Origin: Chrysochromulina tobinii
Lineage: Eukaryota
Reading direction: 5' to 3'
NCBI GenBank assembly: GCA_001275005.1
Contig: JWZX01002948.1
Location: forward strand, 1 to 39,106
Length of the DNA stretch: 39,106 nucleotides
The notes under the pieces are model-generated. The model saw only the letters and a program-made list of their open reading frames with translations. It did not search any database and was not told the DNA's origin. The translations under genes were made by a program, and so were the position numbers. Positions 6,058 through 33,203 of this stretch are shown piece after piece; positions within the stretch are counted from its first letter, which is position 1; the number at the start of each line of letters is the position of its first letter.

Positions 6058-8208
6058 TCACTCGTCGCCCGTCCACTCACGGTCATGCGAGGGCTGCCTC
6101 TCGCCCCTTGCGCTTACATGTAGTCCGCTGCACGACGCCCGCGAGCACAGCGGACTCAAGTCGCGCTGAGTTGAGCGCTCGTTCGGGCTGCCGCCCATGA
6201 ATCCCGAGATGGACTCTGACCGGAATCCTGAGATGGACTCTGACCGGAATCCCGAGATGCACTCTGACCGGAAGATCGTGGGTCGGTTAGGCGAGGGGGT
6301 GCCCGCACGCGGCGCGCGCTCCCGAGCGGCCACCTGGTTGGGCAGCCCAAAGGCGGGCGGCGCGAGCGCGGGCGGTGGTTCTCGGCCGTCAAGGCTCGCC
6401 GAGATTGCACCGAGATTGCACCGAGATTGCGGTGGTTCTCGGCCGTCAAGGCTCGCGTGCCTCGCAGGGACAGGTCCAGGCACTGTCGGGGAGCCGTGGA
6501 ATTCGGCCAGCCGTTGGGAGAACGGTCCACCGATGCTGCTCACCACGGCGCTGCTCCCGCCGCGGCTCTCGACGCTCAAGAGACTATCTGAGGCTCGCGA
6601 ACCACGCGCCGCCAAGCGCCGTCGCGGCACGGGAGTGAGCGCACCAGGCACTTCGCCCATCCCCGCGAGTAGGGCAGCTGGGTGCATGGGGAGCAGTGCA
6701 GGGTGCGGGCGCGGCGGGTGCTCGGCGCTCGGGCTGCTCGGCACGGCGCTCGGGCTGCTCGGCACGGCGCTCGGACTGCTCGGCACGGCGCCGTGCCGGT
6801 AGGACGCCGTCGGTGCCCAACTCGGCGCTGAGGCGGTTGGACTGATCAGCACCGGAGGCGAGTGGGGATCCCTGTGGGGATCTTCCCCGTGGGGATCCCT
6901 GTGGGGATCTTCCCTGTGGGGATCCCTGTGGGGATCTTCCCTGTGGGGATCCCTGTGGGGATCTTCCCTGTGGGGATCCCTGTGGGGATCTCCCGAGCCA
7001 GCAGCGGTGGCGGTGACCGCGGCCGCCTCTGCGCAGTACTCGCCCTCATCGACACCGCTCATGCGCTCCCCGCTCGACGAGGCACCACAGCAGCCGGCGG
7101 ACGCGGGGCAGCATGCGGGCGTGGCGGTACCGGCGCGGGTGGCGGCGGCGGTGCGGTACAAGGGGCCATGAGCGGCGCCCATCACAGCGCCATCGCCGCC
7201 GCCCATCGTACCGGTATGGCTCTCCCATCGTACCGGTATGGCGCTGTGATGGGCGCCGCTGATGGCCAGATGGCGCTGCAGCATGCCCGGCCGGCCACAA
7301 AGCAGCATCTGCGACACGGGCGAGAGGCGCTCGTTGTCTGATGGGCTGCGTCGCCACGGCTCGCTCACATACTCGCAGCGCGTGGCCTCGTCCATCGCAG
7401 GCGAGGCGAGTCCCGACGGCATGCCAGAGGTCGAGCCGCGAGTTGCCAAGTCCGCGTCGACGGACAAGTTGCCGGGGGAATCGACGCGCGGCCAGGGGCT
7501 CGCTCGCAGCCGCTTCGGCTCGTGCTGCGTCGCGTCCGACGCCGAGACACCGAGCCGCTGGAAGGTGTTGACCAGTGCTGAGGGCGGCGGACGCTCGAAG
7601 CCCTCCTCTCCCCAGCCGTGGCCGAGCAGCGGCGAGATCTCGTCCGACGGCGTGCGCACAGCCCCGGAGGGCGAAGGCACACCCGAGCCGATGAAGTCGT
7701 CAGGATGCCGTCGCTTCAGGTGGTGTTGTGGCGGCACGAAAAGAGGAGGCGGACGGTGCTGGTCATCGTCGCTCACGGAGTCGTGCACGGCGCCGCCAAC
7801 GCTGAAAGGTCGCGGAAGCGGTACGCGGGCAAGATTGCCCCGGCAGATAGCAACAGGCTGCGCGATGGGTCTGTTACAGGCTCGCTCATGACTGGGCCAT
7901 TGTCCTTCCATGACCGGCCTTCCTTCAGCGATCGCGGAGGTGTGAATTGGCTGTGAAGCTTCTTTCCTCAGTATGCACTCCAAGCCACAACATGCCTCCC
8001 CATGCACCCATGAACCACTGTACAACATGCACAACAGCCACAACATGCACCACAGTACAATATGCCAGACAATATGCAGTCCCTCCACACCTCGTTCTAA
8101 TCGTCGGGTTGCCCTCGACGGCTCATAGCCACATGCGGGCGCACTCGGGTATCGCTGCGTCATCGGCGCACCGCACCCTGGCGCACACAGCGAGGTAAGG
8201 ATGCTCAC
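6058..8208 (-). CDS. Hypothetical low-complexity protein with several in-frame tandem repeats; start uncertain
   Basis: A 716-codon ORF. All internal repeats (24, 57, 21 and 27 bp units) are multiples of 3 and keep the frame, which suggests coding constraint. No recognisable domain. Confidence 0.45.
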   Translation of the reverse strand: MSILTSLCAPGCGAPMTQRYPSAPACGYEPSRATRRLERGVEGLHIVWHIVLWCMLWLLCMLYSGSWVHGEACCGLECILRKEASQPIHTSAIAEGRPVMEGQWPSHERACNRPIAQPVAICRGNLARVPLPRPFSVGGAVHDSVSDDDQHRPPPLFVPPQHHLKRRHPDDFIGSGVPSPSGAVRTPSDEISPLLGHGWGEEGFERPPPSALVNTFQRLGVSASDATQHEPKRLRASPWPRVDSPGNLSVDADLATRGSTSGMPSGLASPAMDEATRCEYVSEPWRRSPSDNERLSPVSQMLLCGRPGMLQRHLAISGAHHSAIPVRWESHTGTMGGGDGAVMGAAHGPLYRTAAATRAGTATPACCPASAGCCGASSSGERMSGVDEGEYCAEAAAVTATAAGSGDPHRDPHREDPHRDPHREDPHRDPHREDPHRDPHGEDPHRDPHSPPVLISPTASAPSWAPTASYRHGAVPSSPSAVPSSPSAVPSSPSAEHPPRPHPALLPMHPAALLAGMGEVPGALTPVPRRRLAARGSRASDSLLSVESRGGSSAVVSSIGGPFSQRLAEFHGSPTVPGPVPARHASLDGREPPQSRCNLGAISASLDGREPPPALAPPAFGLPNQVAARERAPRAGTPSPNRPTIFRSECISGFRSESISGFRSESISGFMGGSPNERSTQRDLSPLCSRASCSGLHVSARGERQPSHDREWTGDE
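6200..6272. repeat. 24-bp tandem repeat x3
   Basis: AATCC(C/T)GAGATG(G/C)ACTCTGACCGG occurs three times. Confidence 0.9.
6724..6790. repeat. 21-bp tandem repeat x3
   Basis: GGCGCTCGG(G/A)CTGCTCGGCAC occurs three times (AVPSSPS on the minus strand). Confidence 0.9.
6862..6990. repeat. 27-bp (12+15) tandem repeat, ~5 units
   Basis: The minus-strand unit is GATCCCCACAGG-GATCCCCACAGGGAA (DPHRDPHRE). Confidence 0.9.
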
Positions 8209-11506: not shown

Positions 11507-11532
11507 ACTTGACTTGACTTGACTTGACTTGA
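11507..11532. repeat. (ACTTG)n pentanucleotide microsatellite
   Basis: ACTTGACTTGACTTGACTTGACTTGA; a shorter copy lies at ~27894-27909. Confidence 0.9.
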
Positions 11533-11555
11533 ATCACACCTACGAATGGCGCCGC

Positions 11556-16700: not shown

Positions 16701-18529
16701 GCGAGGCCCTTGCCAGGCTTCTTGTTGAACGCATCGGCCGCGGCCTGCACCTCGGACTTGCGCCTTCGTGCGGCGAGCAGCTGCGCCGCCGACTCGTCCG
16801 CCGCGGCGTCGGCGGCCGACAGCGGCGCGCCGTCGCGGGCGCTTGCTTCGGCCTCGAGGGCGAGCACCGAGGGCAGCTCGAGGCCGTCGGCATCGAGGGT
16901 AGTGGACGCGAGCACGTCCAGCAGAGCCTCGATGGCGAGCAAATGGGCCGTGTCGACGGGCACATGCGCGGCGGGGTGCGCGGCGGCTGCGAGCGCGCCA
17001 GCGAGCGCGTGCAGCAGGTCGGAACGCTGCATGTTGCAGTCGAAGGCTGAGAGGAGTCGCATGGAGAGCAGCGGTTGCGAGAGGAGCATAGGCACGCTCT
17101 CCAGCACGAGATGGCGACGGTCGGGAGGGGGCGCGGGCTGCTTCTCGGCGGGCGGCTTGAGGAGCGCAAGGTGCACGCGCGTGAAGAGCGCCTCCTGCTG
17201 TCGGCTGCCGAGCACGCCGACCGTCTGGAGCAGCGCCTGCGCCGTCTTGAGCAGCAGCGAGAGCAGCTCAGTTGGGGGCCCTGGCTCGGGCTCCCCTTCC
17301 TTGCCGTACTTGCACTCGATGTTGGCGATGAGCAGGTAGGAGAGCGAGTCGGTGAGCAGCGTCGAGAGCGCGGGCGTCGCGCCCAGTGGCGCGCCGCCCG
17401 CCCGCAGCGCCGCGAGCAACGCCGCCAACGCAAACTCGCGCACGGGCGGCGGATTATGCGGCTCCGCCGGATCGATCAACCCGATTAGGAAGCGTAGCAC
17501 CTCGTACAAGCAGCCCACCCCGTAGGGTGCCAGCGCCGGCGCTGCCGGCGCCGCCGACGTGCCGTTCGCCGCCGGCTCCGGCTCCGCGCCACCGCCCAAA
17601 CCCGAGCGCGCAGGGGTGCTGGGCGGCTCGGCCTCGGCCGCCGCACCGACCGATGCCGCACCGACCGACGCCGCACCTTCCGCACCTTCCGCGCCTTCCG
17701 CGGGCAGCGCTTCGGCGTCGGCGTCGGCATCGGCCGTCGTGGCCTTTGTGTCGGTGGGCACCTCCCCGGCATCGGCCCCTGCCGCGGCCTCAATCTTGGC
17801 GGCGGCAGCGGCCGCGGCCGCGGCTGCTACCTTTTGGCCTGCCCAGGGAGTCGAGTGGACACGCGCGACAGGCGGCGATGTGGCGCCCGTTCGGGAATCT
17901 GGCGGCAGGGCGGCGGCGCTGGGGTCGGCGACGGTGATCTCGGGGATGCGCGCGAAGAGCGTGCGCACCATCGCGCGCAGCCCAGCCTCCGCCTGGTGGC
18001 GCAGCAGGTCCGACAGCGAGCCTTGCGATGAAATGCGGTAGCACGAGTGCACCACCTCGCACACGGCCTCGTCCGAGAGAGCGCCGCCGCTCGGGCACTG
18101 CACGCAGGCGACGAGCAGCTGCAGGATGCACATGAGCACCACCTCGTCGGCGGCCGGGTCGGTCACCTCGAAGCGGCAGTAGGTCGCCGCGCGCACGATT
18201 GCCACGATCGTTTCAGGCTCGGTGGCTGGATCAAGCGTGAGCAGCCCCGCCTCGAGGAAGGTGTGAACAGCGAGCAACGCCCGCTGCGTGACGACGCCGC
18301 TCGTGTTCTCCTGCCGAATGGTCTCCAGGAAGGGCTCGATGTACTCGAGGCTGCTCACCCGCCTCGTGAGCACGGCGCGGCGCGCCTGGTTGAAGTGGCG
18401 CAGCAGCTTCGTGCCGGACGGGGGCGGCGCTCGGTAGGCGCTAGTCGCGGCTCGCCAGTCGGCGCGAAGCTGCGTGGTGATGGATGCAATCTCGAACGAG
18501 ACGATGTCGCGCAGCTCGCCGCGCGCCAT
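13739..18529 (-). CDS. GBF1: Large Sec7-domain ARF-GEF, GBF1/GNOM type, intronless
   Basis: DCB (PFLETIRQENTSG, CRFEVTDPAADEVVLMCILQLL), HUS (FDCNMQRSDL) and Sec7 (FRLPGEAQKIDRLMEAF, YVLAFAIIMLNTDLH) motifs, plus the GBF1-type C-terminus (LLEAVPETLKNMLLVM). Confidence 0.92.
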   Translation of the reverse strand: MARGELRDIVSFEIASITTQLRADWRAATSAYRAPPPSGTKLLRHFNQARRAVLTRRVSSLEYIEPFLETIRQENTSGVVTQRALLAVHTFLEAGLLTLDPATEPETIVAIVRAATYCRFEVTDPAADEVVLMCILQLLVACVQCPSGGALSDEAVCEVVHSCYRISSQGSLSDLLRHQAEAGLRAMVRTLFARIPEITVADPSAAALPPDSRTGATSPPVARVHSTPWAGQKVAAAAAAAAAAKIEAAAGADAGEVPTDTKATTADADADAEALPAEGAEGAEGAASVGAASVGAAAEAEPPSTPARSGLGGGAEPEPAANGTSAAPAAPALAPYGVGCLYEVLRFLIGLIDPAEPHNPPPVREFALAALLAALRAGGAPLGATPALSTLLTDSLSYLLIANIECKYGKEGEPEPGPPTELLSLLLKTAQALLQTVGVLGSRQQEALFTRVHLALLKPPAEKQPAPPPDRRHLVLESVPMLLSQPLLSMRLLSAFDCNMQRSDLLHALAGALAAAAHPAAHVPVDTAHLLAIEALLDVLASTTLDADGLELPSVLALEAEASARDGAPLSAADAAADESAAQLLAARRRKSEVQAAADAFNKKPGKGLAALQKAGLVSTPLDPAEVAAFLRATPQLEKAALGDFLSSPGDESASVLRAFVAQFDFSAYEIEGALRMFLQSFRLPGEAQKIDRLMEAFARGVFEANPSVFANSDAAYVLAFAIIMLNTDLHSPQIANKMTLDQFVSNNRGINNNKDLPRPFLERVYTVIQSDEIKLNEEMLVLSRPAWRAFEDKPVGKPPGGPPPPPAALGTALSVGVPGTAPSTPVPGTARSAARALPLFPPPPPPHVGPAERALRAQLFSSLSAGVLEALGAMLARADSRDAVATALEGYGRCARLASIHGLQPMVEAVLRSLGVASCLCAAAAADVDAAAAAATAAAAKATTAAAAAPAGAATAATPGADGSVAVDEPAAAASAAKRLREKCLLAGGALFATAHSSAPALTSAHHWLPVVEALCTLHEMELLPSSLCADPVLGRCWDDAKEKPKLSAQPPKLASSSSFSLWGAVTYLVGSAEPDRTAELRLQRAIEHARAEVGGYKLPELLASTTAMTEASLEALLAALLAAHDGSAPLGGADAARAALGIRPLEGEGADAAPTAPGTARRASLLLQLLAEVTIHNGHRFGALWPRMAPVLDTALGESPPRALARGAVLASLRMALRLLPSHPETLPLLLPPLATTVEAKGVLVAPAVDMMAAGIAELLQPSVVSSVDESSSRVLLALASSPDVLASKAAAAATLNALNALVLASNATAAGSGSPLAGCFAGVMSAVIRHAASDATPLEHAIRAVDLVSEMHASLRTLAVAGALPAGALAPLPPTVDLTTAALAPHGPWLRMWLPWLRGLASLCVVSRNAVRDAAIVALQRALLHPDVRSEPAEVWAAAFEGVVFPMLAEVLHRSVGGELDDERLMLRAVTLLSKGLLHHLAGLLSLPTFSLLWLRALELLQSYTHAPNNELLLEAVPETLKNMLLVMATAGAFDATGPPGTGEQSLASITKAVIEGFCPELTAAPDVAQIWGGVPAAPAEAAEGGTVPAEAA

Positions 18530-18800: not shown

Positions 18801-21800
18801 ATGCCCAAGCCAGAGCCTGCTTTCTCGACGACAGACGCGCAGCGCTTGACGACGTGCCTCGACGGCATCGCGGACGACGCCAGTGAGTTGCGCTGGGCCG
18901 CGCTCGATCAGCTCCGCTACTTTTGCGACGGCGCCAATGCGGCGCTGCTCGAGGCCATCGGCGGCAAGCGCTTCCCGACGCTCGCGGTGCTAGTCGAGCT
19001 GCTCGACACGGCCGCGCGGCTCGGCGGGCCCATCGCGGTGCGCAAATGCGTCGACGTTCGACAGCGCGTGCCTGTCGGCCTCGTCGTCCAGCTGCTCGAG
19101 TGCCTGCTGTGCAATGCGACGTCCAACCTGAAGCCGTTTCTCAAGATGCCCAACGGCATCAAGAACCTCGTGACCACGCTCTCGCACTACGAGGACCTCA
19201 TCTACGACGCGGAAGGCCCCGACATCCTCGACCGCGCGTGCAACGTGCTCTCCTACTGTACCTTTTACCACCCTGCGAGCGCTGCCTCCATCTTCATCGC
19301 CGCCGACGGCGTCGCGGTCGTGACGCGCATGCTCAATGCGGCCATCACGCACTACACGCGCACGCTCGCGCGGCCCGGCACCGCGCTCCCCTCGCGACCA
19401 ATGCCTCTCTCCGGCTCGTCCGCGCAATGGGACTCGCTCACGGGCAACATCTGCGAGCTCGTCTCGAATGTCTCGTCGGCAAACAGTCAAGCCCAGAAGG
19501 CCTTCACGCAGGGCGGCGCCTTGCGCTCGCTGATCGACCTGGTGCCCTTGCTCACGACGACGCGCTCGATGACCGTCGCCCAGGGGCAGCCCTCGCTGAC
19601 GTTCGCCACCGAGCAGGTGCTCCTCGCCGCGGCAACGCTCGTCTGGTGCACGCCGCAGTCGCAGACCATGCTCCTCGAGGCGGGGACCATCGTAAGCGCC
19701 TTGGCCCCGCCGCGCCCTCACCCGCCGCCGCGCCCGAATGCCCCACGCGCCCCACCGCTGGTCTCCGCCTTGAGCTCTTTCATCTCCGCCTTGAGCTCTT
19801 TCATCTCCGCCTTGAGCTCTTTCTTCTCCGCCCCCTCCCGCCCCCAGGACGCATGCCTCAAGTACATCGACCAGTCGGCCGCGGCAAGCGCGCCCGCAAG
19901 CAGCAACCTGGACAATGGCGAGGCGCACCACGAGGCGCACCCCACCCCGGACACGATCGTGTCGCAGGCGTGCCTTCTCCTCGTGCTCAACAGCCAGCTC
20001 GAGAACAAGCCGATGCAGTCCTCGGTGCTCCAACGTGCTGAGAAGGTGAGCTCGCGGGCCGCCAAGGCGGGCCACACGCACGAGCTGCGCAGCGAGTTGG
20101 CCGCGCTCTACACGCTGCACCAGGAGATGTTCGAGGCGATCGAGCACATCCGGCTCAACCATTACCACAGTGACGAAGTGGTCAAGAGCCTCAAGCTCCT
20201 CGCTCGCTCGCTCCCTTCGAAGGGGGAGGCACCCTACCTACTCGTGCACATGCACGGGACCCAGACGCTCGAGCTCATGATCCGCTGCGTGTCCAACATT
20301 GACGAGGAGGTGCTCTCGCATGCGTGCCTCGCGTGCCTGCAGCGCTGCATGCAAGTGCTCACCACGACGCCTCGCCTCCTTCCCCACAGGTGCTCTCGCA
20401 TGCGTGCCTCGCGTGCCACGCGCTCATACAGCGCTCGCCGCCCGCGCGCATCCTCTTCCTTCGCAAGCAAGGCATCGCTGAGCTCGCCGAGTGCTTGCGC
20501 GACTACAACACCGACGTCAAGGCCACCTCGCTGCGCATCCTATGCCTGCTCGCGGCCGAGTCGGCGCACGCGCGTGACGAGATGCGCACCGAGGAGGTGC
20601 TGCTGCAGGTGCTGCGCACTATCCAAGCGTACCCAGCCGACGACGTGACCTTGCCAGTGCTCGACGCAGCGCTCGAGGCGGTCGCACACATCGTGCTGTC
20701 CTCGCGCACCAACCAGGACTACATCCGCTCGGTGGCGGGGCTCGAGCCGCTCGCTACGGCGCTCAAGCACTGCGTCGCCTCCCTCCCTCGCCACTCGCCG
20801 CCAGCGCACACGACGCGCGGCGCCGACGGCTTCGACGGGATGGGCGGCAACATGGGGGCTGCCCATGGCGGCGCGGCCATGGGCAGCGCCGGCATGGGCG
20901 CGCGGCGTGGGCGCGCGGGCATTCACGGCACTCCGACGCGCGTTGAGCCAGCGGCCACGTGCGGGGCCCCGTCGGCGGTCACGGCCGCGCAATCGCGGCC
21001 GACCACCGCGGGCCGCTCACGCCCGACCACCGCGGGGCGCGTGCGCGGCGAGAGGGCATCGGACGAGATCTCGGGCCCGGACGGTCGCTCCGCTCGCACG
21101 ACGACGGCGGTGGCGCCCAGCGGCGCGATCGACCTGTGGAAAGTGACCGAGACGGCGTGCGACGCGCTCAACAACGTGGCGTACCGTAACGTCGGCAACC
21201 AGGAGGCGCTGCTCGAGCTTGGGGTGCTCCCGGCTTGCCTCTCGCTGCTGGCGCGCCACGAGAGCGGCGATGGCGGCGAGGGCGTGGGTGCGTCGCTCGC
21301 CGCGGGAGCGCTCAACCTGCTCATCAACATGGCCGACACCAACAGCGCCACTCAGGACGCCCTCGGCTCGCGTGAGGCTGCCGAGGCGGTCCATCGGCTG
21401 CTCAGTGCGACGGGCGCGCCCCGGATCGTGTGCGCCGCGTGCCTGCTGCTCTCGCACGTCGCGTGGAACCATCCGACCAACCAACGTCTGTATGGGACCG
21501 AGGCCGCCATTCGCACCCTCCTCTCCCTCCTCTCGGCCGAAGGCCGGGCTGCGGCCCTGGGGCAGAAGAGGGCGGATGCCGCCGCCGCTGAGGGGCTCGC
21601 GGCCGTGGAAGGGCTTGCCCCGGGCTCGGCCGAGGGCGGCGCGGAAGCGGTGGGCCAAGCGGTCGAGCTCGCCCTCTACGCGATGATGGCGCTCGTCAAC
21701 CTGTCGTACTGCAACGCGACGGTGCAGGAGCTCGTGCGCGCGTGCGGCGGTGTGCCGCTGCTGCACCAGCAGCTGGCGAGCCCTCTGTACGAGGCGCGCA

Positions 21801-23263
21801 AGACGGCCGCCTTCTGCCTGGGCAACCTGGTGCGCGATAACTCCGCGAACGCGCGCGACGAACGTGATTGCATGCTGATTGCATGCTGATTGCATGCTGA
21901 TTGCATGAATGAGGATTGCCTCCCTCATCAGGTGCGCGATAACTCCGCGAACGCGCGCGACGTTGTCTTGCACGGCGGCATCGAGTCGCTGCTCTACTGC
22001 CTCAACGACGACGACGACGACGAGCTCTCGAAGACGGCCTACTCGACGATCCTGCACTTGGGCGACTCGGGCGTACAGCAGCTCCTCCACTTGAGCCGCG
22101 ACGCCGCCAAGCAGCTCGCCGATCTCCATGCGCGCACGCCGGATCTCAAGGCCGCGCTTGCGGCGGCCATGGCTGCGGACGAGGACGAGGACGAGGACGA
22201 GGAGGACGAGACGGACGAGGCGGCGGCTGGCGCGCCCGGCATCGGCGGTGCGCGCGCCGGCACGCCCTCCACGGCCAGCGGCGCGGCCAGTGGCGCCCGG
22301 GACGGCGCCGACAAGCTTCTCATGGAAGACATCGAGGATGACATTGAGACCCTCTCGCTCAATAGTTTGATCGCTCGGCACGCGCCCGCGCCCGCCACGT
22401 CACAGCATCAGCAGCAGCATCATGAGCAGCAGCAGCATCAGCCGACTCGCCGCCCCGCCTCGGCGGCCGTCGGCGGCGGCTCCTTCTTCGCGGCGCGCGC
22501 TGAGGGCGGAGGTACCGGTACCAGTGGCGCCCGGGACGGCGCCGCCTCCACCGCGTTGCGGCCGTCGACTGGGCGCCGGGGTGGTGCGGCGGCCGCGGCG
22601 GGCGCGGGTGCCCTCTCGTCAGTGCCGACGGAGACGTTGGTCACGTGCCGTACGGCGATCGCGCTCCTCGAGCGCTGCCTGCCTGTGCTCAACGGCACAG
22701 TTTACACGGCCGAGGCCCATCAGCGCGCGTTGCTCACTGAGCACGGGATGGACTGCCTGCTGCCGCTCCTCTGTGACGCCGTGCCCTTCAACCTGCAGGA
22801 GCAGGCGCTCTACGTGCTACTGAACGCGACCTCGCTCAAGGATGGCAAGGCGCTGTCGCTCGCGTGCCGACACGGCGCGGTCGGCGCGATCCTCGCGGTG
22901 GCGGCCGTGGCGCACGGCATCAAGCACGAGGACGCGCTTGGGAAGTGTCTCTCGGTGCTTGAGCACCTCGTAGAGGGCAGCCGGGAGGGGCGCGAGAAGT
23001 TCTGTGCGACCGAAGATGGCACCAAGCTCCTCATGACCATCCTTCAGGTGGGTGATGTGCAGGCGCTCAATCCTGAGGTGCGCACGGGCTCGGCGAACCT
23101 GCTCCTCGCGCTGGTCTCCGCCGAGCCCTCGCAGAAGGCTGTGCTCAGGCTGGGTGGCCGGCGGGTGCTCGAGCAGATCGCCCTTTGGGACACGAAGCGG
23201 CGCGACACCATGGTCCTCGCCGCGCGCGCCAAGCAGGCGCTGCGCGAGCTGACAGAGTCGTGA
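18801..23263 (+). CDS. Armadillo-repeat protein, spliced: 18801-19691, 19848-20309, 20390-21829, 21932-23263
   Basis: Three consecutive ORFs join in frame after removing GT-AG introns. ARM-like helices include ACDALNNVAYRNVGNQEALLELG and ALVNLSY..VQELVRACGGVPLL. Confidence 0.8.
19692..19847 (+). other. Conventional GT-AG intron (156 bp) containing a 21-bp tandem repeat x3
   Basis: GTAAG donor, pyrimidine-rich CCCCCAG acceptor and TCTCCGCCTTGAGCTCTTTC repeats. Removal gives EAGTI/DACLKY. No exon duplication. Confidence 0.75.
20310..20389 (+). mobile_element. Introner-like intron, cassette A, with 28-nt duplication of the downstream exon start
   Basis: GTGCTCTCGCATGCGTGCCTCGCGTGCC at 20310 and 20390. 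The 48-nt cassette at 20342-20389 ends in CCCCACAG. Removal restores the frame. Confidence 0.75.
21830..21931 (+). mobile_element. Introner-like intron, cassette B, with 31-nt duplication
   Basis: GTGCGCGATAACTCCGCGAACGCGCGCGACG at 21830 and 21932. (TGATTGCATGC)n is followed by GATTGCCTCCCTCATCAG. Confidence 0.75.
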
Positions 23264-23932
23264 ACGTGCCATGTGGCGGGCGCCACACGGCCACACGTGG
23301 CCGGCGCGGCGGCCGCGGCGGCGTACCCCCGCGGCGGCGTACCACGCCCGCTCCCAACGTATCGTCTAAGGACAGCCCTGGAGGTGCTCGGCGCGCGGAG
23401 ACAGAGGAATCGACATGTGGAGTCGAGAGAGGCCGCAAGTCTTCATCTGTTCGCACATTGTGGGTAACATGTACTTTGTACTAGAGGTTGTATGGCGCAG
23501 GTCACCTCAGGTCACTTCACAGTTCGTTGTTTGCAATGGTCACGCTTCAACCTTCAAGCTTCATCTTCCGACGTCCACGGTCGCCGGTCCATGTCCGAAC
23601 CTTTCCATGGACCGTGCCGTTCACGGCTCTGACTCGCGGCGTGCACTCAATTAGTCTGCACAGAGATCCGTGCGCCCATCCCGGCATCCGGTCCGATCGC
23701 GGAGCTCTGCCTTGTGGCGGAACCACTTTCCCAAACCGACGAAATCTCCAGTCCCCGCGCGAGTCGCGCGTGCCAGTACCATAAACCACTGACACCCATG
23801 CTTCTCCTCACTCTTGCGTGTGTGATGCAGTCTCGTGTGTCTTCCGTGTGTCTCGAGCGTCCGTGTCTCGCGGGTGTGATCACTGTAGCCCCCCCCCCGC
23901 GCGCGCCAGCGCGCAGCGGCCTGTTTTAACGT

Positions 23933-25231
23933 TTACAGCTGTATAGAGAGGTCCATGCTCCCCGATGGGCCGCTGCTGCTGCCGGTGACGCGGCCGCCTG
24001 CTGACGAGGCGCGGTCCCCGCTTTGTTCAACGCCGTGGCCCCCGCCGTCGTCCCCCTCCTTGCGAAACTCATAGTCGCTCAGCTGGTACTCGCCTGCATC
24101 GAGATGGTAGTCATGAGAGTCGTTCACAACGGAGAGGTCGGGAGCCGAGTGTGCGGAGGAGAGCCCCCACTGCTGCTCATGCACGATCGTCGCACCCTCC
24201 CGCGCCAACACCGCCGCCACATGCTGTGCCTCCTCCTTTTGCTGATGAGCCTCCTCTGCGGAGACCGTGCTCGCGGACGTATTGCGGAGCCAGTTGTTGA
24301 CGTCTTTGCGCCGCAGCTCGACTTGTCTGCGCCTCGTCCACCAGCAGACCATCGCCAGGCAGCACAGCAGCGCAACTACCGCGACGAGCACGGCGCTGAC
24401 GAGGATCGTGATGGCCTCACCAACGGCGCTGTTTAGCGCGCCTGGCGGCCGTTGCGGGGGCGGCGAGGGCGAGGGCGAGAAAGTTGGCGAGAAAGTGGGC
24501 TGCGGCGGCGGTGATGCGACGTCCGTGATGGTGGGTGACGTCACCACCGCAAGCACGGCGATCGAGACGCCGGTGACGCTCGCGAGCATGGCGGTCGCGC
24601 TGCTTGGGCTGCTCGTTGCGCTTGCCATCGCCGACTGCACCGAGGTCGCCATGACCGTGGGCGTGAGGACGCGCACGCCGACGATGACGCTGCCCGACGT
24701 TACAGTCACCGTCACCGCCGACGGGTCAACGTCCGCCCGGGCTGCGATCGCGCTCTTCATCTCGGTCCGCACGCTCGGGGTGAAGGAGGAGACGTCGCCG
24801 GCGAGCCGCAGGGCGAGCTCGACGACGCTCATCGCCGGCGGCGGTGGCGACTCCGAGGGCGGCGGGAGTGAGGGCGACGGTGGGGGCGAGGGCGGAGCAG
24901 GCGAGCGCAAGGGCGGCGGTGGCGAGGGTGCTGGCGACTGCGGGCTGGGCGATGTCGAGGGCGGCGGTGGTGATGGCGGCGGCGGCAATGGCGGCGGAGG
25001 CGATGGCGATGGCGGCGGAGGCGATGGCGATGGCGGCGGCGGCGATGGCGGCGGCGGTGATGGCGGCGGCGGCGATGGTGAAGGTGGCGCACTGGGCGGC
25101 TGACAGAACGACTGTCGCGCCACCGCCTGGCACGTGCTCAGGGCGCTCTGGAGGCGGCGTAGGTTGGGATGCAGCTCGCGTTGAGCCGCAAATTCTGAAA
25201 AGGAAGGTGCAGGGATGGGCAAAGGAAACAA
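23933..25231 (-). CDS. Pro-rich single-pass membrane protein (or 3' module of a larger gene); start unclear
   Basis: SPPPP stalk, a small extracellular domain (VDPSAVTVTVTSGSVIV), a hydrophobic TM (AITILVSAVLVAVVALLCCLAMVCWW), an RRR stop-transfer and a cytoplasmic tail. The ORF has a non-ATG start. Confidence 0.6.
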   Translation of the reverse strand: MFPLPIPAPSFSEFAAQRELHPNLRRLQSALSTCQAVARQSFCQPPSAPPSPSPPPPSPPPPSPPPPSPSPPPPSPSPPPPLPPPPSPPPPSTSPSPQSPAPSPPPPLRSPAPPSPPPSPSLPPPSESPPPPAMSVVELALRLAGDVSSFTPSVRTEMKSAIAARADVDPSAVTVTVTSGSVIVGVRVLTPTVMATSVQSAMASATSSPSSATAMLASVTGVSIAVLAVVTSPTITDVASPPPQPTFSPTFSPSPSPPPQRPPGALNSAVGEAITILVSAVLVAVVALLCCLAMVCWWTRRRQVELRRKDVNNWLRNTSASTVSAEEAHQQKEEAQHVAAVLAREGATIVHEQQWGLSSAHSAPDLSVVNDSHDYHLDAGEYQLSDYEFRKEGDDGGGHGVEQSGDRASSAGGRVTGSSSGPSGSMDLSIQL

Positions 25232-25248
25232 GCCGACGGTCGCTTGCC

Positions 25249-27746
25249 CTATGCGAGCGCCGGCTGCCCAAAAAGCTGCTTGAGTCGTGAGCGGAGCTCC
25301 TCATCTTTGGTGCTGGCTGTGACCTCCGGATGCTTCTCCAGATAGTAGCTGCTCACCGCGTCGAACACTTGGTTGGCAAGGATCTGGGCGTCATCGGAAG
25401 AGTCGGCGATCTCGGGTGGCACCTCGGTGGCCATGCGCCGGCCGTTGCTTGGGCTGCACGCGATCTCACATTGGTTGGTGATGGAGTTGAAGAAGGTGCC
25501 AGGGCCGCACCTCATGCTGGGAGGCGGTGGAGGCGCAAGTAGCGGAGATCCGTTAATGACCAACAGCTGCGTGGCCGACAGGTAATCAAATTGATCATCC
25601 CACACTGGGTTGGGTAGCGTTGAGAGGCAGGTCTTATAGAGACCGATGGTGGTAAGCTGGACCGAGACGGTGCCGTTGCTGATCGTTCCGCCCAACTGAG
25701 TGGCACGCGCGAAGGCTGCGCCCGCGCAAGTCCGGGAGCCGGAAGGTAGGAAGACGAGGTGGTTGCCATTGCTTGCGATCCCGCTCACTGTGACGATGGT
25801 CAAGAAGCTGTGCACGATGGTGCTGGGCGTCAGAGTCACGCTCGGAGGGGCGGGTGGAGGCGAGGGCGGCGGGGGGAGGGCGGTGGGGGCGACGGAGGCC
25901 GACGAGGAGGAGGGGGGGAGGGCGGTGGGGGCAACGGAGGCGGCGGACGAGAAGGAGGTGAGGGCTGCTGCGGCGGTAACGAGGGCGGCGGCGGTGAGGG
26001 TGGTGGAAGCGACGCTGGCAATGGCGGTGGATTTGAGGGCGAAGGTGGAGGCGGCGAGGGCGAAGGTGGAGGCGGCAACGGTGCTCCCCCAGAGGGCGGC
26101 GGCGAGGGCGGCGAGGGAGGCGGGGGTGCCGGGCAAGGAAAGGTTGTGAGGGATGGGTTTACGCCGGTGAGGGTCGTTGCCCAGGAGCAAACGCGACCAG
26201 ATGAAAAGTAGACATTGTGACCATACAGCCCATTATTGCAACAATCATATGAAGCTGTGTTACCACTGATGGTGGATGATGAGATGGCCACTATGGCACC
26301 CCCGACAAGGATACCGCCGCCGTGGCCGGCTCGGTTGGAATACACTTGGCAGTTGACGATTGAGACAGTGCCTCCCAAGAAGGCGACACCACCGCCTCCA
26401 CTGTATCCAGCTGAGTTCCCGTATATCGAGGAAGATGTGAACGTGACCGTGCCAGAAGTGACATAGACACCGCCGCCCCCATTGCTAGTAGATAAGCTAG
26501 CTGAGTTGTAGTAGATCTGTGAGCTGATGATGGAGACGGTTCCAGATGCAACGAAAACACCGCCGCCTCCATAAACATCCTGAGACCCTGATGAGGAGGT
26601 CACTGTGTTCTCACTGATGATGCACGATGAGAAGGTCACTGTGCCACCCTGGACGAAGACACCGGCGCCTCCGGTGAGAGTGTAGCCTCCCGTGATCCTG
26701 AGCCCGAACAGTTGCACGACGCCCGACGAGCCCGGGTTGATGTTCAGCACACGGCGCGGACTCGAGGAGCTCCCTTGTGCGTTCAGGATGACCGTGGCTC
26801 CCGCCGCCGCCTCGAGGATGACGCTCCTGGTGATGCTGAGCTCGGCGGTGAGGTAGTAGGTGCCGGAGGCAAGGACGATGCGGCCGACGGCGGTGTTGGC
26901 GAGTGCACTGGTCAGGTCGGCGACGGTGCTCACCGCGGTCTGCAGCGCACGGCGGTGGCTCGTGAGCACATGCTGAACGGAGTTTATTACGGGAACGTCA
27001 TTGTCGGTGGCCTCGGTGCATGGGAGCATGGTGCACAATGCAAGGAGAGTGCTGAGGAGAACGAGCTTTTCATGCTTCCCTCGAGGCTGAGACCGAATGT
27101 AAGGAGACTTGGCGAAACGATGGTGCCATGCCATGAGCGAACATGCCATCAGCATGCACCCCCAACACACAAGCTGCCGGGGAATGAGGATGATGCTGCC
27201 GCCGTCCAAACCATGAGCAGGCGCCACCGAAAGGCGAGCGGACGCCACCAGTTGGCAAGTAGGCGCCTCTGCAATGGATAGCCGCGACGAGGCGGGCGGA
27301 GCGGAGCGCGCATTGGCACGCCTCAACGAGAGGCCGACCAATGCATCGGTGAAGTTGGTGATCTGGACCAGCACTTGGCTTCGCAGGTAGTCGGTTGCAT
27401 CAAACAGAGTTCCACCGCCGTCGCTGCACGAGCTGCCGCTGGCGTTGAGACAGTTGTTCGTGCATGCTATGCCAGGGGAATGTGGCGGCGCGGGCGGCGA
27501 CGCGGTTTGCCAGTCGCAGTCGACGCAGTCGTTGTCGTACGCGCACTTCGGGACCTCCGAGGCGAACTCGCAAGCGTCGACTGTACAGAGTGACGGCAGG
27601 GGAGGCGAACTGACGCCGAGGAAGAGCTGACGGCTCGCCCGGGTCCAAGGCGCCTCAGCCCCGACAAAGGGGGTAGAGGTCGTTCTTTCGGCGCTCGCGC
27701 GCGCGCCCAAAGCGGCGGCGACGAGAAGGAATAGGAGCGGCCGCAT
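25249..27746 (-). CDS. Secreted right-handed beta-helix (pectin-lyase-fold/Pmp-like) Pro-rich protein, frameshifted near 25875
   Basis: Signal peptide MRPLLFLLVAAALG and repeated GGGVxVxxGTVxxxxxxIxxN beta-helix turns. The Pro-rich linker continues in the 25249-26190 frame after a one-base shift at the G6 run 25871-25876. Confidence 0.65.
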
Positions 27747-27952
27747 TTTGTGGAAGTTCACAGCCAATTTTTAGAATTCGACACCCAAGACACCGCGGAC
27801 CGGCGCACGACAAGAGAAGCGTCCTCTCCCCACAAAGAGGGAAAAACTTCCTAAAACCCCCCTGTGAGTGTCTTTTTAATTAGCACCAAGTCGACTTGAC
27901 TTGACTTGAGAAGAGTTTGACGATTCACGTCTGCGATTCACTGCCAATTCAC

Positions 27953-30900
27953 ATGGCACTGCCTCGCGCTCTCGCCGAGTGCCTCGAGGCGGCGGCGGAC
28001 GCGGACCCCCCCGACTGGCGCTGGGGTTTGCTTCCAGAGGCCGTGCGCGCATCCATCAGCGAAGGAGAGTGGCAGCGGGCGGCTCGTGCACACAGCCTTG
28101 GCGTGCAGGGGCCGTGGTCCACTGCGCTGGGAGGCGACGAGGCCTCGTACCTCGAAGAGCTGCTTCGCAAAAGCCGTGAGAAGTGCATGCTCTACCCGTA
28201 CCACCTCGCGGATGCGCTCGGCCGAAACCCGCGCCTCCCCACCATCACGCCCTTTGATTACTACCAAGAGATGCTCATCGAGACGATGCGCGCCGAGAAA
28301 TCGTTTGACACAATCCCCAACTTCACAGCGGCCGACTGCGGGCGCCTGGTAGGCGTGGGGCGCAACGAGTTCTTGCACGCCCTCAACCAGTGCCGCAGCA
28401 AGGGCTGGCTGTGGAAGCGTCGACGCGCCATCATCGCTAGCTCGCTGCCGGCGGCGGCGGCGCTGCCTACGATGCCGGTGCTGCACTGGTGGCAGGTGCA
28501 CCTGACCAAGGCGGCGCACAAGCTGCTCGCGCAGCGAGCCGCAGCGCGCGCGCAAGGCGCCGCGCGCCAGGAATCGCTCCGGTCGTCCATCGGCGAGCGC
28601 ATCAGCCAAGCTCTCAAGGAGGCCCGAGAGGCCGCGGCTGCCCACCACGGCGCCTCCGGGGCCGCCGCCGCTGTGAATGGCGCCGTGTTGGGCACCGCGA
28701 CCGGAGGGCCCGTCCCGCCGCCCACCACGGCGCTCCACGCAGCCAGCAATGACGGGGACGAGCTCGGCGCCGACGGGGCTGACGAAGAGGGCGCCGCGGT
28801 GGGCGGCAGCAAGGACGTCGCGGGGCCGCATGGCTTGTCCGCGGAGCAGTTGAGCGTGCTCGGAGCGATCGAGGTGGCAAGGGGCGCTCCGAACCGGATG
28901 ATTGCCTCTGATTGCCACTGATGGTCTCCCTCATTGCATGCGGCTGGCAGGCGGCGCTCTGCCCGTACCGGCGCTGCATGCAAGTGCTCACCACGACGCC
29001 TCGCCTCCTTCCCCACAGGTGGCAGGGGGCGCTCTGCCCGCTGGCGAGCTGCCGCGCGACGCGCTGCCCGCTCTGTACTCGCTCGGGTTGGTGCGCTACG
29101 ATGTGCCCGTCGCCGCGTGCGATCGGATCGCGGTGCCGCCACTCAAGGGCTTCGTCATGAATCGCGTCGGGCATGACTACCTCGAAAAGATGCTGTACGA
29201 GGTCTTCGTGTCCAACGACGAGGCCATGACCGTTGGGGAGGTAGCGTCGATGCTGGGCCACTCGCTGCATGCAAGTGCTCACCACGACGCCATACCTCCT
29301 TCCCCACAGGTGGCGTCGCTGCTGGGCCAGCCACTCCCTCGCATCCTGCGCGCCGTCTCGATCGCGTGCTTGCTTGGCTTCGCTGTCAAGCTCACCGCGC
29401 CGCCGCTCAGCTCGCCGCCGCCTCCCCGGCCGACGGCAGCCACGACGGCGAGCACACCCGCTGGGTCAGAGAATGGAGCGGAGCCAAAGCCGCTGGCGGA
29501 GCCAGCGTGGCATGCCTCGTGGCATCACCTTGCGGAAGGCGGGGGCGCCTGCAAATCTCGGGCACATATCGCGGAAGGCGGAGGCGCCACGCCTGACCCG
29601 GCGGCTGCGGGCGATGGCGCTGCGGCGGGCGCGCCCAGGACGGCGCCGGAAGCTCCGGCGGATGAAGGTACGCGCACGGCGAGCGAGGCTGCGCCGCCGC
29701 TGCAGCGCATCGGCCTGCTCGTCGATTCGAAGCTGGCGGCGTGCCTCATGATGTCCAATTTGGCTGACGGGCTCAAGCAGCACGCGGTCACGCTGTATGA
29801 GGTGGGCAAGATCCCCAACGCCTCTGATGGCCTCTGATTGCCTCTAATTGCCTCTGATTGCCTCCCTCTTCACAGGTGGGCAAGATCCCCAACGAGGCAC
29901 TCGACGCCTTCCTCGCAGCCACAGAGAAGGTGGAGCGACCGCAGATCTCCTCCGATGGCCATTGATTGCCTCTGATGGCCTCTGATGGCCTCCCTCCTCA
30001 CAGGTGGAGCGACCGCAGATCCACGAAGCTGATCTCCTCGAGTACTTTGACCAGGCGATCGCGCTGCGGCACGCCCTCCTCTTCCTGCGCAGCGACCCAG
30101 CGTGTGCGATCAACGGCAGTCTGCGGCCCCTCGACATCGTGCGCACCTGATTGCCACTGATTGCCACTGATTGCCACTGATTGCCACTGATTGCCACTGA
30201 TAGCCACTGATAGCCACTGATAGCCACTGAGCGGCCCCTCGACATCGTGCGCACCGAGTCACTCGCTCCAGTGCCCGAGCGACTCCTCAGCATGCAGGGG
30301 CTCATTACGGCGCCATCTCCCCAATGCCCCACAGGTGCGCACCGAGTCACTCGCCACCCTCGATGGCGCCACGCGCGCGCGCGTGCTGCAGCGCCAGTAC
30401 GCGCTGCTCGTCTCGATGGCGCCGATGGAGCCCCTCTGCGAACACGTGTACACCGCCGGGCTGCCGGTGATGCACTTCGGGCCCACATTCTCGCTCCTCA
30501 CCTCGCCGTGGCTCCAGCTCGCGCTCTATACGACGCTCGGCTGCGGCCCGCCCTCGATCCTGCTGCCACGTGGCGCTCGGCTCCGGCGCGTGCCGGAAGG
30601 GTTGCGACCGTATTCACACCTCCTCCTCACACCCTGGGGCGGGGAGCCCGCCGTGACCTCCACGTCACACCTGCTCTCGGTCGCCGCCGAGCTCCTCACG
30701 CGCGCCCCTCTACTGGTGCAAGCCTACGTGGCCGACGCCAGCGCCGGCACGGCCAGGCTGCCCATGCCGGTCGCCGCCGACGCCGCCGAGACGCCGAAGG
30801 CAGCTACCAATCTCGGACAGAATCTCGGGCATAATCTCGGGCGGATCGCCGACGCCGCCGAGACGCCGCGGCTCGAGTCGCCGCCCGCCGCCACGCCCTC

Positions 30901-31625
30901 GCCGGCCATGCCCACAGGCGAGGGCAGCACACGCACCGACACCGAGGCCGAGGGCGCTCACGAGGACGCTCACGAGGGCGCCCATGACGGCGCTCACGAG
31001 GGCGCCCATGACGGCGCTCACGAGGGCGCCCATGACGGCGCTCACGAGGGCGCTCACGAGGACGCGAGCCGAGCGGGCGGCGGCGAGGGTCCTCATGCCG
31101 CCGCTCGACGCGTCATGCACGCCCTCGGCCTCGAATCGTCTATAGGGATGCTCCAGCTGGTCCGTGTGCAGGCGGCGGCGGACGCGGGAGGGCCGCCTAG
31201 CACGGCGTGGGTGCCCCTCATGTTGCACTTCGGTCTGCCACTCTGCGACGTGCCCACGTGCGAGGCGGTGTGCGAGCAGGTGCGGCAGCGACTACTCTTC
31301 AGTGCGAGCCGTACCGGCGCTGCATGCAAGTGCTCACCACGACGCCTCGCCTCCTTCCCCGCAGGTGCGGCAGCGACAGCTCTTCAGTGCGAGCCAGCTG
31401 CAGGCCCACACAGACGCAGTGCGCGCGCTGCTGCGGCGCGTGCGCGCCTTCGTGCACGAGTACACAGGCATCGAGGCGGAAGCTGCGGGCAGGGGCATGG
31501 AGACCGCGACCGCGGAGGAGAGCGACGTGACGCTTGCCGACTCGGCCGAGAGCGTCACGTACCCGTGCGTACCGCTCTTCTTCGACGGCCGCTGCATGCA
31601 AGTGCTCGCCGAAGCGGCGAGGTGA
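27953..31625 (+). CDS. FAM91A1: FAM91A1 homologue, spliced: 27953-28873, 29019-29240, 29310-29801, 29876-29929, 30004-30138, 30335-31279, 31365-31625
   Basis: YPYHLAD, ITPFDYY, EKSFDTIPNFTAADC..VGRNEF, VPPLKGFVMNRV..DYLEKMLY, LMMSNL..GLKQHAVTLYEVGK and LD.VRTESL..LD..TRARVL are FAM91 motifs. Every predicted exon length is a multiple of 3. Confidence 0.88.
28874..29018 (+). mobile_element. Compound introner-like intron (cassette B-like filler + cassette A; three copies of the exon start)
   Basis: GTGGCA(A/G)GGGGCGCTC-like sequence at 28874, 28945 and 29019. Cassette A at 28971-29018 is identical to 20342-20389. Confidence 0.72.
29241..29309 (+). mobile_element. Introner-like intron, cassette A, 20-nt duplication (2 mismatches)
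   Basis: GTAGCGTCGATGCTGGGCCA versus exon GTGGCGTCGCTGCTGGGCCA. The cassette is 44/48 identical to the other copies. Confidence 0.72.
29802..29875 (+). mobile_element. Introner-like intron, cassette B, 19-nt duplication
   Basis: GTGGGCAAGATCCCCAACG at 29802 and 29876. (CCTCTGATTG)n is followed by CCTCCCTCTTCACAG. Confidence 0.75.
29930..30003 (+). mobile_element. Introner-like intron, cassette B, 18-nt duplication
   Basis: GTGGAGCGACCGCAGATC at 29930 and 30004. Decamer repeats are followed by CCTCCCTCCTCACAG. Confidence 0.75.
30139..30334 (+). mobile_element. Compound intron: divergent cassette-A intron (30247-30334) plus a second duplication across its donor with (TGATTGCCAC)n filler
   Basis: GCGGCCCCTCGACATCGTGCGCACC at 30123 and 30231; GTGCGCACCGAGTCACTCGC at 30247 and 30335; about 8 decamers at 30148-30230. 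Confidence 0.72.
30953..31060 (+). repeat. In-frame 12/24-bp coding repeat (HEGA/HDGA)
   Basis: CACGAGGGCGCC-CATGACGGCGCT is repeated inside a FAM91A1 exon. Confidence 0.85.
31280..31364 (+). mobile_element. Introner-like intron, cassette A, 31-nt duplication (2 mismatches)
   Basis: GTGCGGCAGCGAC(TA/AG)CTCTTCAGTGCGAGCC at 31280 and 31365. The cassette at 31317-31364 is 47/48 identical. Confidence 0.75.
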
Positions 31626-32056: not shown

Positions 32057-32962
32057 CTAGTATTTCTGCAACAGCTTCTTGAACACGTCCACGAGGCTGA
32101 ACTGAATCGCCTGCGAGAGGAAGAGGCGCGGCACGCGTACCGAGAGACCGGACGCCAGGCCGATGAAGCCTCGCTCGCGGACAAAATCTTGCAGGCAGAG
32201 GATGATACTTGAGTGCTTGCCCGCCTGGATCTTCGATTTCGCGATGTCGATGGGATTGTTCAGGCACACTGAGAGCGCGCCGCCACACCCTCCGGCTAAA
32301 AACGAGACCCACGCCGGAGCGTTGCCGACGTCGTGGCCGAGTGCACGGCAGAGCACCGCCTTGACCTCACCAAAGCAGAAGAAGCGCACGGCAACGCTCG
32401 ACGATTGGCGCAGCGCCGTGGCGGTCGCGCCCACGTAGAGTGTGCCAACGCCTCCCTCGCGCACCAGCTGCAGCGCTGTCAGCGGTACCGAACCCTTCTG
32501 GGCCGACATTGCCTGCGACAGGACCTTGACGCGGTCGGTCGGCGCGGTCAGCGAGAGGGACTCGATGACACCCGAGCCGAGGCCGCATGCGAGCGAAGAC
32601 AGCCCAGGGTACTTGCTCCTGTCCACACCGATATGCTTGAGGTTGTCAGACAACAACTCGAAAGAGAAGAACCGTACTGAGGTCTTGGCTGCCGACTGCA
32701 AGAAGAAGGCCCAGAAGCCGTTATAGAGGCCAATAATGCCATTGGCCTGCACGATGGCCCGGGTGCACTCAATCGGAGAGCGGTACTTTTGCAGCTGCAC
32801 CTGCGTTGACAAGGTGTCCATGGGCATCGTGAAGCAGCAGTCAATGGCGCCAGCGCCTGCACCAGCAGCAACGGTGCGCCAGCCGCCCTTGCTTTCGGAG
32901 GTGGTGGGCTTGGGTGTCAGCATCGGCTGAGTCGTGACCTTGAGTGATATGTGAGCCGCCAT
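32057..32962 (-). CDS. Mitochondrial carrier (SLC25), citrate/tricarboxylate or succinate-fumarate type
   Basis: Three carrier repeats (PMDTLS, PTDRVK, PIDIAK) and contact motifs KTSVRF, LRQ..SVAVRF and RVPRL, typical of the CTP1/SFC1 group. Confidence 0.88.
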   Translation of the reverse strand: MAAHISLKVTTQPMLTPKPTTSESKGGWRTVAAGAGAGAIDCCFTMPMDTLSTQVQLQKYRSPIECTRAIVQANGIIGLYNGFWAFFLQSAAKTSVRFFSFELLSDNLKHIGVDRSKYPGLSSLACGLGSGVIESLSLTAPTDRVKVLSQAMSAQKGSVPLTALQLVREGGVGTLYVGATATALRQSSSVAVRFFCFGEVKAVLCRALGHDVGNAPAWVSFLAGGCGGALSVCLNNPIDIAKSKIQAGKHSSIILCLQDFVRERGFIGLASGLSVRVPRLFLSQAIQFSLVDVFKKLLQKY

Positions 32963-33203
32963 GTGAGCCGGTGTGCGAGTGGTCCAAGTCGTCCACGTGA
33001 GCCTTTCGGGATCGCAACCAACCGCGGGGTCTTAGAGTTGGACGCCATGTTCGTAGATGCACCTCAGTCGACGTGGAGATTCACATTCAAGATTCGTGGA
33101 GGTCTTGTGAAATTGTGTTCACAAAGGTTATATAACCGTGTACTAACCAGTCGTTCCGCATCACCTGTGTTTTCAGCACACCGATTGTGTCCGTCTGAGT
33201 CCG

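What the first reader, a model, noticed from the sequence alone, without database searches (positions are those of the whole stretch)
20310..31364. Intron-generating system: exon-start duplication supplies the donor, an inserted cassette supplies the acceptor
Seen: eight introns in two unrelated genes (20310, 21830, 28874, 29241, 29802, 29930, 30139/30247, 31280) share one architecture: [18-31 nt copy of the downstream exon start, beginning GT] + [shared cassette ending CAG] + [original exon]. Splicing removes one copy plus the cassette exactly and restores conserved FAM91A1 and ARM reading frames. There are no terminal inverted repeats, duplication length varies, the cassette 3' end is fixed at the AG and its 5' end is ragged. 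Established: described introners are mostly DNA-transposon-like with short fixed TSDs, while variable TSDs with a fixed 3' end and ragged 5' end characterise target-primed reverse transcription. Inference: intron 3'-end RNA, or a short template, is copied into staggered breaks at proto-splice sites, creating self-excising insertions. I cannot tell from here whether this has been reported for this organism.
Basis: partly seen in the sequence, partly recalled or inferred. Interest (0 to 1): 0.95.

Follow-up and report, generated by a model that had tools for sequence, protein, structure and literature searches.

The report
Introns stitched from exon and intron
A freshwater alga carries many young introns, present in some strains and absent in close relatives, each built from a short duplicate of the exon plus a piece of another intron, likely made by a DNA-copying slip that borrows from existing introns, which would be an unusual way for introns to breed more introns.

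Summary
Real. All eight introns exist; the six in FAM91A1 are skipped in RNA contigs at the predicted sizes. Four (A1, A2, F1, F2) are absent from near-identical relatives. The layout is genome-wide in this Chrysochromulina: 73 of 130 sampled cassette sites carry an exon-start duplicate (control 0.1).

There are two cassette families. A mirror class exists, in which the duplicate supplies AG and the cassette GT (13 clear cases by eye; no RNA check). Only 2 of 37 linkers fit one template, 60 of 61 tails differ, and there is no poly(A).

A strain-specific intron copies its neighbour's 3' end exactly over 51 nt. One captured piece spans another gene's exon-intron junction. Junction microhomology is raised. 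Duplicate-flanked inserts without splice sites are in frame (6 of 6).

Best reading (0.55): two-jump template switching during DNA repair or replication, filtered by selection for exact splicing. It resembles introners, Daphnia break-repair introns and a single potato case, but is none of them. I did not find it in print in 10 searches.

The parts
18801..23263 (+). ARM-repeat gene (host 1), three introns
19692..19847 (+). A0: older intron without duplication or A/B cassette; shared by relatives
   Evidence: spliced form aligns with homologs; P0106 reads through it; no RNA test
20310..20389 (+). A1: 28-nt exon-start copy (20310-20337) + type A piece; absent in 5 proteins of 95-98% identity
   Evidence: no RNA test
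21830..21931 (+). A2: 31-nt exon-start copy (21830-21860) + type B piece; absent in 6 near-identical proteins
   Evidence: no RNA test
27953..31625 (+). FAM91A1 gene (host 2), six introns, 1009 aa spliced
28874..29018 (+). F1: composite of 16-nt copy + B-like piece + second 21-nt exon-start copy (28945-28965) + type A piece; absent in relatives, whose site reads Met
29241..29309 (+). F2: 20-nt copy + type A piece; absent in 8 relatives, present in P0015
29802..29875 (+). F3: 19-nt copy + type B piece; shared with the relatives that lack F1/F2
29930..30003 (+). F4: 18-nt copy + type B piece
30139..30334 (+). F5: composite; a 24-nt repeat across the 5' junction (30123-30146 / 30231-30254) flanks nine B units; inner 20-nt copy at 30247 + degenerate type A piece; outer donor used
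31280..31364 (+). F6: 31-nt copy + type A piece sharing 56 nt (1 mismatch) with the 3' end of F1
29532..29588 (+). Exonic, unspliced 39-nt insert: 18-nt direct repeat around an AATCTCGG-type unit, in frame
   Evidence: covered without gap by an RNA contig (record 2)
30775..30868 (+). Exonic, unspliced 72-nt insert: 22-nt direct repeat around three AATCTCGG-type units, in frame
   Evidence: covered without gap by an RNA contig (record 5)
6372..6456 (.). 57-nt insert: 28-nt direct repeat around three AATCTCGG-type units, no splice register

Best explanation
These are young spliceosomal introns in a Chrysochromulina alga, each made of a 12-50-nt duplicate of the host exon and a piece of one of two related intron-end sequences, likely created when a broken or stalled DNA strand jumps by microhomology onto an existing intron (often a nearby one), copies part of it and jumps back behind its starting point. 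SHOWN: the architecture, splicing of six, presence/absence among relatives, both polarities in DNA, and one exact neighbour-to-new-intron match. INFERRED: the two jumps produce the duplicate and the captured piece in one event. The fixed splice end, the sense orientation and the 65-95-nt length would be set by selection, because only inserts that splice out exactly or stay in frame survive in exons. Every new intron would become a donor, so the family would spread without a master copy or an enzyme of its own. The enzyme (theta-type end joining or fork template switching) is not identified.
For: (1) L095 has an 81-nt intron absent from orthologous L012 (97.9% identical, single copy of the 33-nt duplicate); its 3' 51 nt match the next intron of the same gene, about 490 nt downstream. 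(2) Window A1/F1/F6 share 48-56 nt of 3' end across two genes 8.5-11 kb apart. 3'-anchored matches of 40 nt or more: 4 of 75 same-region pairs vs 14 of 8051 others. The best match of the captured piece lies in the same region for 11 of 86, the region being about 1.8% of the search space. (3) Both polarities and junction-spanning repeats occur. (4) An L072 intron holds 62 nt (95%) of L129's exon end plus intron start, with no other homology between the loci. (5) Junction microhomology averages 1.6 nt (n=16) and 2.1 nt (n=11) vs 0.4 in controls. (6) Repeat-flanked AATCTCGG inserts without splice register are multiples of three in 6 of 6 vs 33 of 99 intron-type inserts. (7) Duplicate length and captured length anticorrelate, rho -0.57, n=70. 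(8) Phases 34:14:25 track GT availability 262:83:208. (9) The same sites are hit twice (F1, F5). (10) All 8 fall in 2 of 15 ORFs, P=0.0006 (ORF set chosen by me).
Against: 75 of 86 introns have their best match outside the 5 kb or less of flank held. The four long same-region matches come from only two regions. The larger nearest-neighbour excess (22 of 85) includes tandem copies. Microhomology is modest (3 nt or more in 7 of 27), and the mirror set was hand-picked. Only 6 of 9 type-A inserts without acceptor are in frame. [quoted passage not shown] Why one 20-nt core stays so conserved is unexplained (it was also my search pattern), and a conserved core is what a transposase-recognised element would show. 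Local similarity could come from later gene conversion. Mirror introns have no RNA check. No enzyme was tested.
Confidence: 0.55

Rival explanations
1. Reverse-transcriptase route (the first reader's, or its template-switching variant): a LINE-type or other RT primed at a staggered nick copies intron-end RNA or unspliced nascent RNA into the site.
For: Variable duplications of 12-49 nt and junction microhomology are typical of non-LTR insertion (own knowledge). 99 of 147 automatic calls have the acceptor end fixed. Non-LTR introners make up 5% of classified families (PMC12130899, section 6 read). Nascent RNA could give a local bias.
Against: Opposite-polarity class. 2 of 37 linkers nested. 60 of 61 tails distinct and no A-tail. 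Donor exon captured. Identical tails shared between two separate genes. The 99:27 ratio is biased by searching with a 3' motif.
Confidence: 0.15
2. Tiny non-autonomous copy-and-paste element moved by an HUH transposase of Replitron or Helitron type, with fuzzy ends.
For: Replitron-1 inserts in one orientation after RG, makes variable-length duplications and carries flank from its parent copy; one Replitron protein was recovered from C. tobinii (PMC10288648, section 9 read and passages). G precedes 79 of 99 sites. The core is conserved and donor flank is carried along.
Against: No constant termini at either end, and pieces are 5' halves, 3' halves or as little as 10 nt (L126). No terminal direct repeat or hairpin (fold z-scores -0.35 to 1.08). 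Only 48 of 99 sites follow AG or GG while 31 follow CG or TG, as a splice donor preference would give. No transposase in the window.
Confidence: 0.15
3. Two steps: a classical ~70-nt introner inserted whole, and one half was later overwritten by local exon duplication or conversion.
For: Full-length copies with both splice sites exist (L010, 69 nt, 6-nt flank match), and A and B occur joined in them. Marine Chrysochromulina have 58-108-nt introner families (PMC9860276 supplement rows).
Against: The one DNA-level polymorphism goes from empty straight to chimeric. 41 of 99 duplicates are perfect. Repeat-flanked inserts also occur with no splice sites.
Confidence: 0.1
4. Assembly artefact or chance repeats.
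For: Short repeats are prone to misassembly, and DNA runs X1/X9 may be the window's source.
Against: RNA joints at all six FAM91A1 introns. Identical sequence in another assembly (L105, L106). Relatives' proteins run into the same introns. Permutation control 0.1 vs 73.
Confidence: 0.01

Closest known systems
Introners with a splice site recruited from the target-site duplication (Gozashti 2022, PMC9860276, passages and supplement rows; 2025, PMC12130899, section 6 and supplement rows)
   Same: Repeated intron sequence at many unrelated sites; one splice site from the duplication (donor in Symbiodinium, acceptor in marine Chrysochromulina); mRNA unchanged; about 70 nt.
   Different: Reported duplications are 3-9 bp (4 bp in those two examples) and the whole intron is one element. 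Here the duplicate is 12-49 nt and variable, makes up a third of the intron, either end can come from it, and only a fragment is shared. The 2025 table lists C. tobinii with 0 families. The two motifs were not found in the held, cut 2022 supplement.
Potato RdRp intron gained by tandem duplication across an intron-exon boundary (PMC4974935, abstract only)
   Same: Donor from a copied exon piece; branch site, pyrimidine tract and acceptor inherited from a parent intron.
   Different: A single event adjacent to its parent. Here the piece lands 0.5-11 kb away or in other genes, at many loci, which needs two jumps.
Daphnia introns from staggered double-strand-break repair (PMC4202315, passages)
   Same: Polymorphic new introns; exon-end repeat at the far end of the intron; repeated hits at one site.
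   Different: Repeats are 4-12 bp and the source of most fillers is unknown. Here repeats are longer and the filler is a recognisable intron piece.
Same-gene intron duplications in fungi (PMC3609843, passages) and local intron propagation in Oikopleura (as cited in 10.1101/051292, first part read; original paper not held)
   Same: New introns resemble neighbours.
   Different: Whole introns, rare events, no long exon duplicate reported in the passages seen.
Replitron-1 of Chlamydomonas (PMC10288648, section 9 read)
   Same: Variable duplication, parent flank carried along, G before the site.
   Different: 0.9-3.6-kb elements with constant terminal repeats; not introns.

Membership tests
Introner (DNA-transposon type) | Many near-identical whole introns at unrelated sites | tested here: not met
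   Only 35-65-nt fragments are shared; 60 of 61 tails differ
Introner (DNA-transposon type) | Short fixed target-site duplication (3-9 bp) | tested here: not met
   12-49 nt, variable
Introner (DNA-transposon type) | Terminal inverted repeats | tested here: not met
   6 nt or more in 3 of 99; no significant fold
Introner (broad sense) | Repeated sequence creating precisely spliced introns, with empty sites | tested here: met
Non-LTR/SINE insertion (TPRT) | Variable-length duplication | tested here: met
Non-LTR/SINE insertion (TPRT) | One constant 3' end with nested 5' truncations | tested here: not met
   Mirror class; 2 of 37 linkers nested
Non-LTR/SINE insertion (TPRT) | Poly(A) or simple-repeat tail at the fixed end | tested here: not met
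   A-run of 3 or less in 99 of 99; B tandem units lie inside, not at the fixed end
Non-LTR/SINE insertion (TPRT) | Autonomous RT partner sharing the end | not testable with these tools
   No genome held; none among 19 window ORF pieces
Replitron/HUH element | Constant termini with short direct repeats | tested here: not met
   Both ends vary
Replitron/HUH element | Insertion after RG | tested here: inconclusive
   AG/GG 48 of 99, CG/TG 31 of 99; confounded with donor consensus
Tandem-duplication intron gain | Intron wholly made of adjacent duplicated DNA | tested here: not met
   The middle is foreign to the site; met only by secondary events such as L026 vs L062
Break-repair / templated-insertion intron gain | Direct repeat plus filler from another locus, with junction microhomology | tested here: met
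   (small samples)
Break-repair / templated-insertion intron gain | Dependence on a repair polymerase | not testable with these tools
   Needs a mutant or mutation-accumulation lines

The most novel reading that the evidence does not exclude
An enzyme-less, masterless intron lineage: existing introns breed new ones through the host's repair machinery. Each birth fuses half of a parent intron to a duplicate of the target exon, in either polarity, spreading locally from gene to gene. The flanking repeats would also allow exact deletion, giving a live intron birth-death cycle in a culturable alga that whole-intron introner screens score as having none.
Probability: 0.4. Interest if true: 0.92.

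Novelty: new variant of a known kind. Interest (0 to 1): 0.8.

Why it matters
How new spliceosomal introns arise is a long-standing open question, and most young introns have no traceable source. Here parent, child and empty site can be seen together (L012/L095), the process is frequent and still segregating among strains, and the genus is culturable, so the mechanism is directly testable. It joins three separately proposed routes (exon duplication, break repair, intron propagation) in one event. It also suggests that screens for whole near-identical introns can miss a prolific class.

Tried and rejected
No whole genome is held, and the records behind the metagenome loci are not searchable, so copy number, distance decay and an autonomous partner stay open. 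Read depth over the cassettes is 50 to over 1000 times single-copy depth, but the tool says it is no copy number.

Viral-contig scan: 1 hit at a contig end (L001), not used. Prokaryote-genome scan: 1 hit (L138), about the chance expectation for a 20-mer, not used. Lake run X19 gave only short pieces.

All eight window introns are phase 0, but the wider sample shows no phase bias (73 called, 41 ambiguous), so this was dropped as a feature. Inner F5 donor 30247: rejected. Secondary structure: none. Linkers templated from the immediate flank: 5 of 27 are simply longer, mutated duplicates; the rest are not.

The generic-scan controls are inflated by reverse-strand views of real repeats and were not used. 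The systematic flank-sharing scan had faulty masking and cut output; only two pairs read by eye are cited. 14 of 27 automatic mirror calls and most of the 21 spanning calls are shifted registers, tandem copies or doubtful.

Literature: 10 searches found no description of this architecture. Subscription papers (for example the dinoflagellate introner and later Chrysochromulina genome papers, recalled) are not held. The 2022 supplement was cut, and two 2025 supplement files were not searched. The Oikopleura original was not held. Earlier scan notes: nothing on this system.
Full report
1. Observation. A scan for GT..AG segments whose start repeats after the AG found the perfect cases at once, and inspection fixed all eight: A1 20310-20389, A2 21830-21931, F1 28874-29018, F2 29241-29309, F3 29802-29875, F4 29930-30003, F5 30139-30334, F6 31280-31364. 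Splicing yields a 1009-aa FAM91A1 (Pfam FAM91_N and FAM91_C) and an ARM protein; haptophyte homologs align without gaps across each junction. In four RNA runs, contigs skip exactly 145, 69, 74, 74, 196 and 85 nt with GT..AG ends, in 2, 3, 2, 2, 3 and 2 runs. One contig retains F6 and one covers the start of F1, from intron retention or DNA. Neighbouring window proteins cluster at 90% with Chrysochromulina parva proteins, so the host is a Chrysochromulina.

2. Corrections. There are two cassette families, not one. Type A has a 20-nt core holding a likely branch point and a C-rich tail (A1, F1, F2, F6; degenerate in F5). Type B has 10-11-nt tandem units (A2, F3, F4). Some loci carry both joined in a full ~70-nt intron (L010). 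F1 holds two copies of its exon start and both types. F5 was hit again at its 5' junction, which moved the donor.

3. Youth and polymorphism. Eight proteins of the 85%-identity cluster read through F2, seven of them through F1 as well (P0017 starts at that site), and all eight stop inside F3. P0015 lacks F1 but runs into an F2 intron. Five ARM proteins at 95-98% identity cross A1 and A2 unbroken; P0106 also reads through the older A0 intron, which shows its source is unspliced DNA. More distant haptophyte proteins cross all eight sites, though some may come from spliced models. At DNA level, L095 has an 81-nt intron where L012 has one copy of the 33-nt duplicate. The outgroups point to gain; the flanking repeats would also allow exact loss, so some absences may be losses.

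4. Genome-wide. Of 147 distinct sites with enough flank, 130 have an acceptor, and 73 of these carry an exon-start duplicate scoring 12 or more; permuted controls average 0.1. Most of these introns are 67-95 nt; donors are GT in 69 and GC in 4. An automatic classification gave 99 donor-from-duplicate calls in 68 regions, 27 mirror calls and 21 spanning calls. By eye, 13 mirror calls are clear (for example in L004, L032, L034, L042, L072, L080, L129): the cassette gives GT and branch units, and a 15-44-nt copy of the upstream exon end gives AG. None has RNA support, and the sample is biased to type A by the search motif.

5. Against target-primed reverse transcription. Both polarities occur. 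Linkers between duplicate and core fit a common upstream sequence in 2 of 37. 60 of 61 tails differ; there is no A-tail and no inverted termini; there is no significant fold. An L072 intron contains 62 nt of L129's exon end and intron start, so in that case the template was unspliced.

6. For copying from existing, often local, introns. The 3' 51 nt of the strain-specific L095 intron equal those of the next intron in the same gene. A1, F1 and F6 share 48-56 nt across two genes. Matches of 40 nt or more occur in 4 of 75 same-region pairs against 14 of 8051 others, but the four come from two regions. The best match of the captured piece is in the same region for 11 of 86, against about 1.8% of the search space; 75 have no local donor in the flank held. 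Type B variants also cluster (9 of 20, expected 1.1). Junction microhomology averages 1.6 and 2.1 nt against 0.4 (n=16 and 11). All eight introns sit in 2 of 15 ORFs (P=0.0006).

7. Selection shapes what is seen. Repeat-flanked AATCTCGG-type inserts with no splice register are multiples of three in 6 of 6; two lie in FAM91A1 exons and stay in the RNA. Intron-type inserts are multiples of three in 33 of 99; type A inserts without acceptor in 6 of 9. Duplicate and captured lengths trade off (rho -0.57). Phases follow GT availability.

8. Mechanism. Most likely a nascent strand at a break or stalled fork jumps by microhomology into an existing intron, copies 10-65 nt, and re-anneals 12-50 nt behind where it left. 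This makes the duplicate and the filler in one event (inferred, 0.55). Products survive if they splice exactly or keep the frame, and each survivor is a new donor. Rivals: RT on unspliced RNA (0.15), a Replitron-like element (0.15), and whole introner insertion followed by overwriting (0.1). The conserved core is unexplained under the best reading.

9. Known systems. It works like introners that take a splice site from the duplication (PMC9860276, passages), but fails their defining tests: short fixed duplication, whole shared intron, inverted termini. The 2025 survey lists C. tobinii with no families; whether the window belongs to that assembly was not determined. The potato case has the same chimeric logic as a single adjacent duplication (PMC4974935, abstract). 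Daphnia break-repair introns have 4-12-bp repeats (PMC4202315, passages). Replitron-1 shares variable duplications and parent flank (PMC10288648, section 9). Ten searches found no report of this architecture; subscription papers and parts of the supplements were not visible.

10. Verdict. New variant of a known kind; interest 0.8.

Noticed in passing
window 31590-31607: 18 nt of the type A core sit in the last codons of FAM91A1, just after the conserved FDG motif, without duplicate or acceptor; present in RNA contigs of three runs. Looks like an exonised capture.
   Followed up: partly
window about 1018-1142, minus strand: Older GT..AG segment with degenerate type B units and no evident duplicate.
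   Followed up: no
window 28360-29250: DNA runs X1 and X9 show a second, several-percent-divergent allele or strain at about half depth that also appears to carry F1.
   Followed up: no
window 19692-19847: A0 intron holds three 21-nt tandem units whose number varies among relatives; it is in frame in some (P0106) and frameshifted in others.
   Followed up: partly
L126 vs L058: 42-nt polymorphic insert made of a ~33-nt duplicate plus only the last ~10 nt of a type A acceptor.
   Followed up: partly
L026 vs L062: 94-nt polymorphic tandem duplication of exon plus intron 3' part, the potato-type event.
   Followed up: partly
L003 1935, L049 1015: Type B units resemble the start of the adjacent duplicate, as if built by repeated slippage at the junction.
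   Followed up: no
window 34000-39106: Open 1700-aa low-complexity ORF with internal repeats and one ankyrin stretch, running off the window; repeat-like or mobile origin untested.
   Followed up: no
window 1736-18529, 32057-33890: GBF1/Sec7, TPH, PITH, V-ATPase c, RING, hydrolase, PDZ-ferredoxin and mitochondrial carrier ORFs read without interruption; introns cluster in two genes.
   Followed up: yes
L001 2001-2060: A type A acceptor sits at the end of a viral contig, probably a chimeric join.
   Followed up: no
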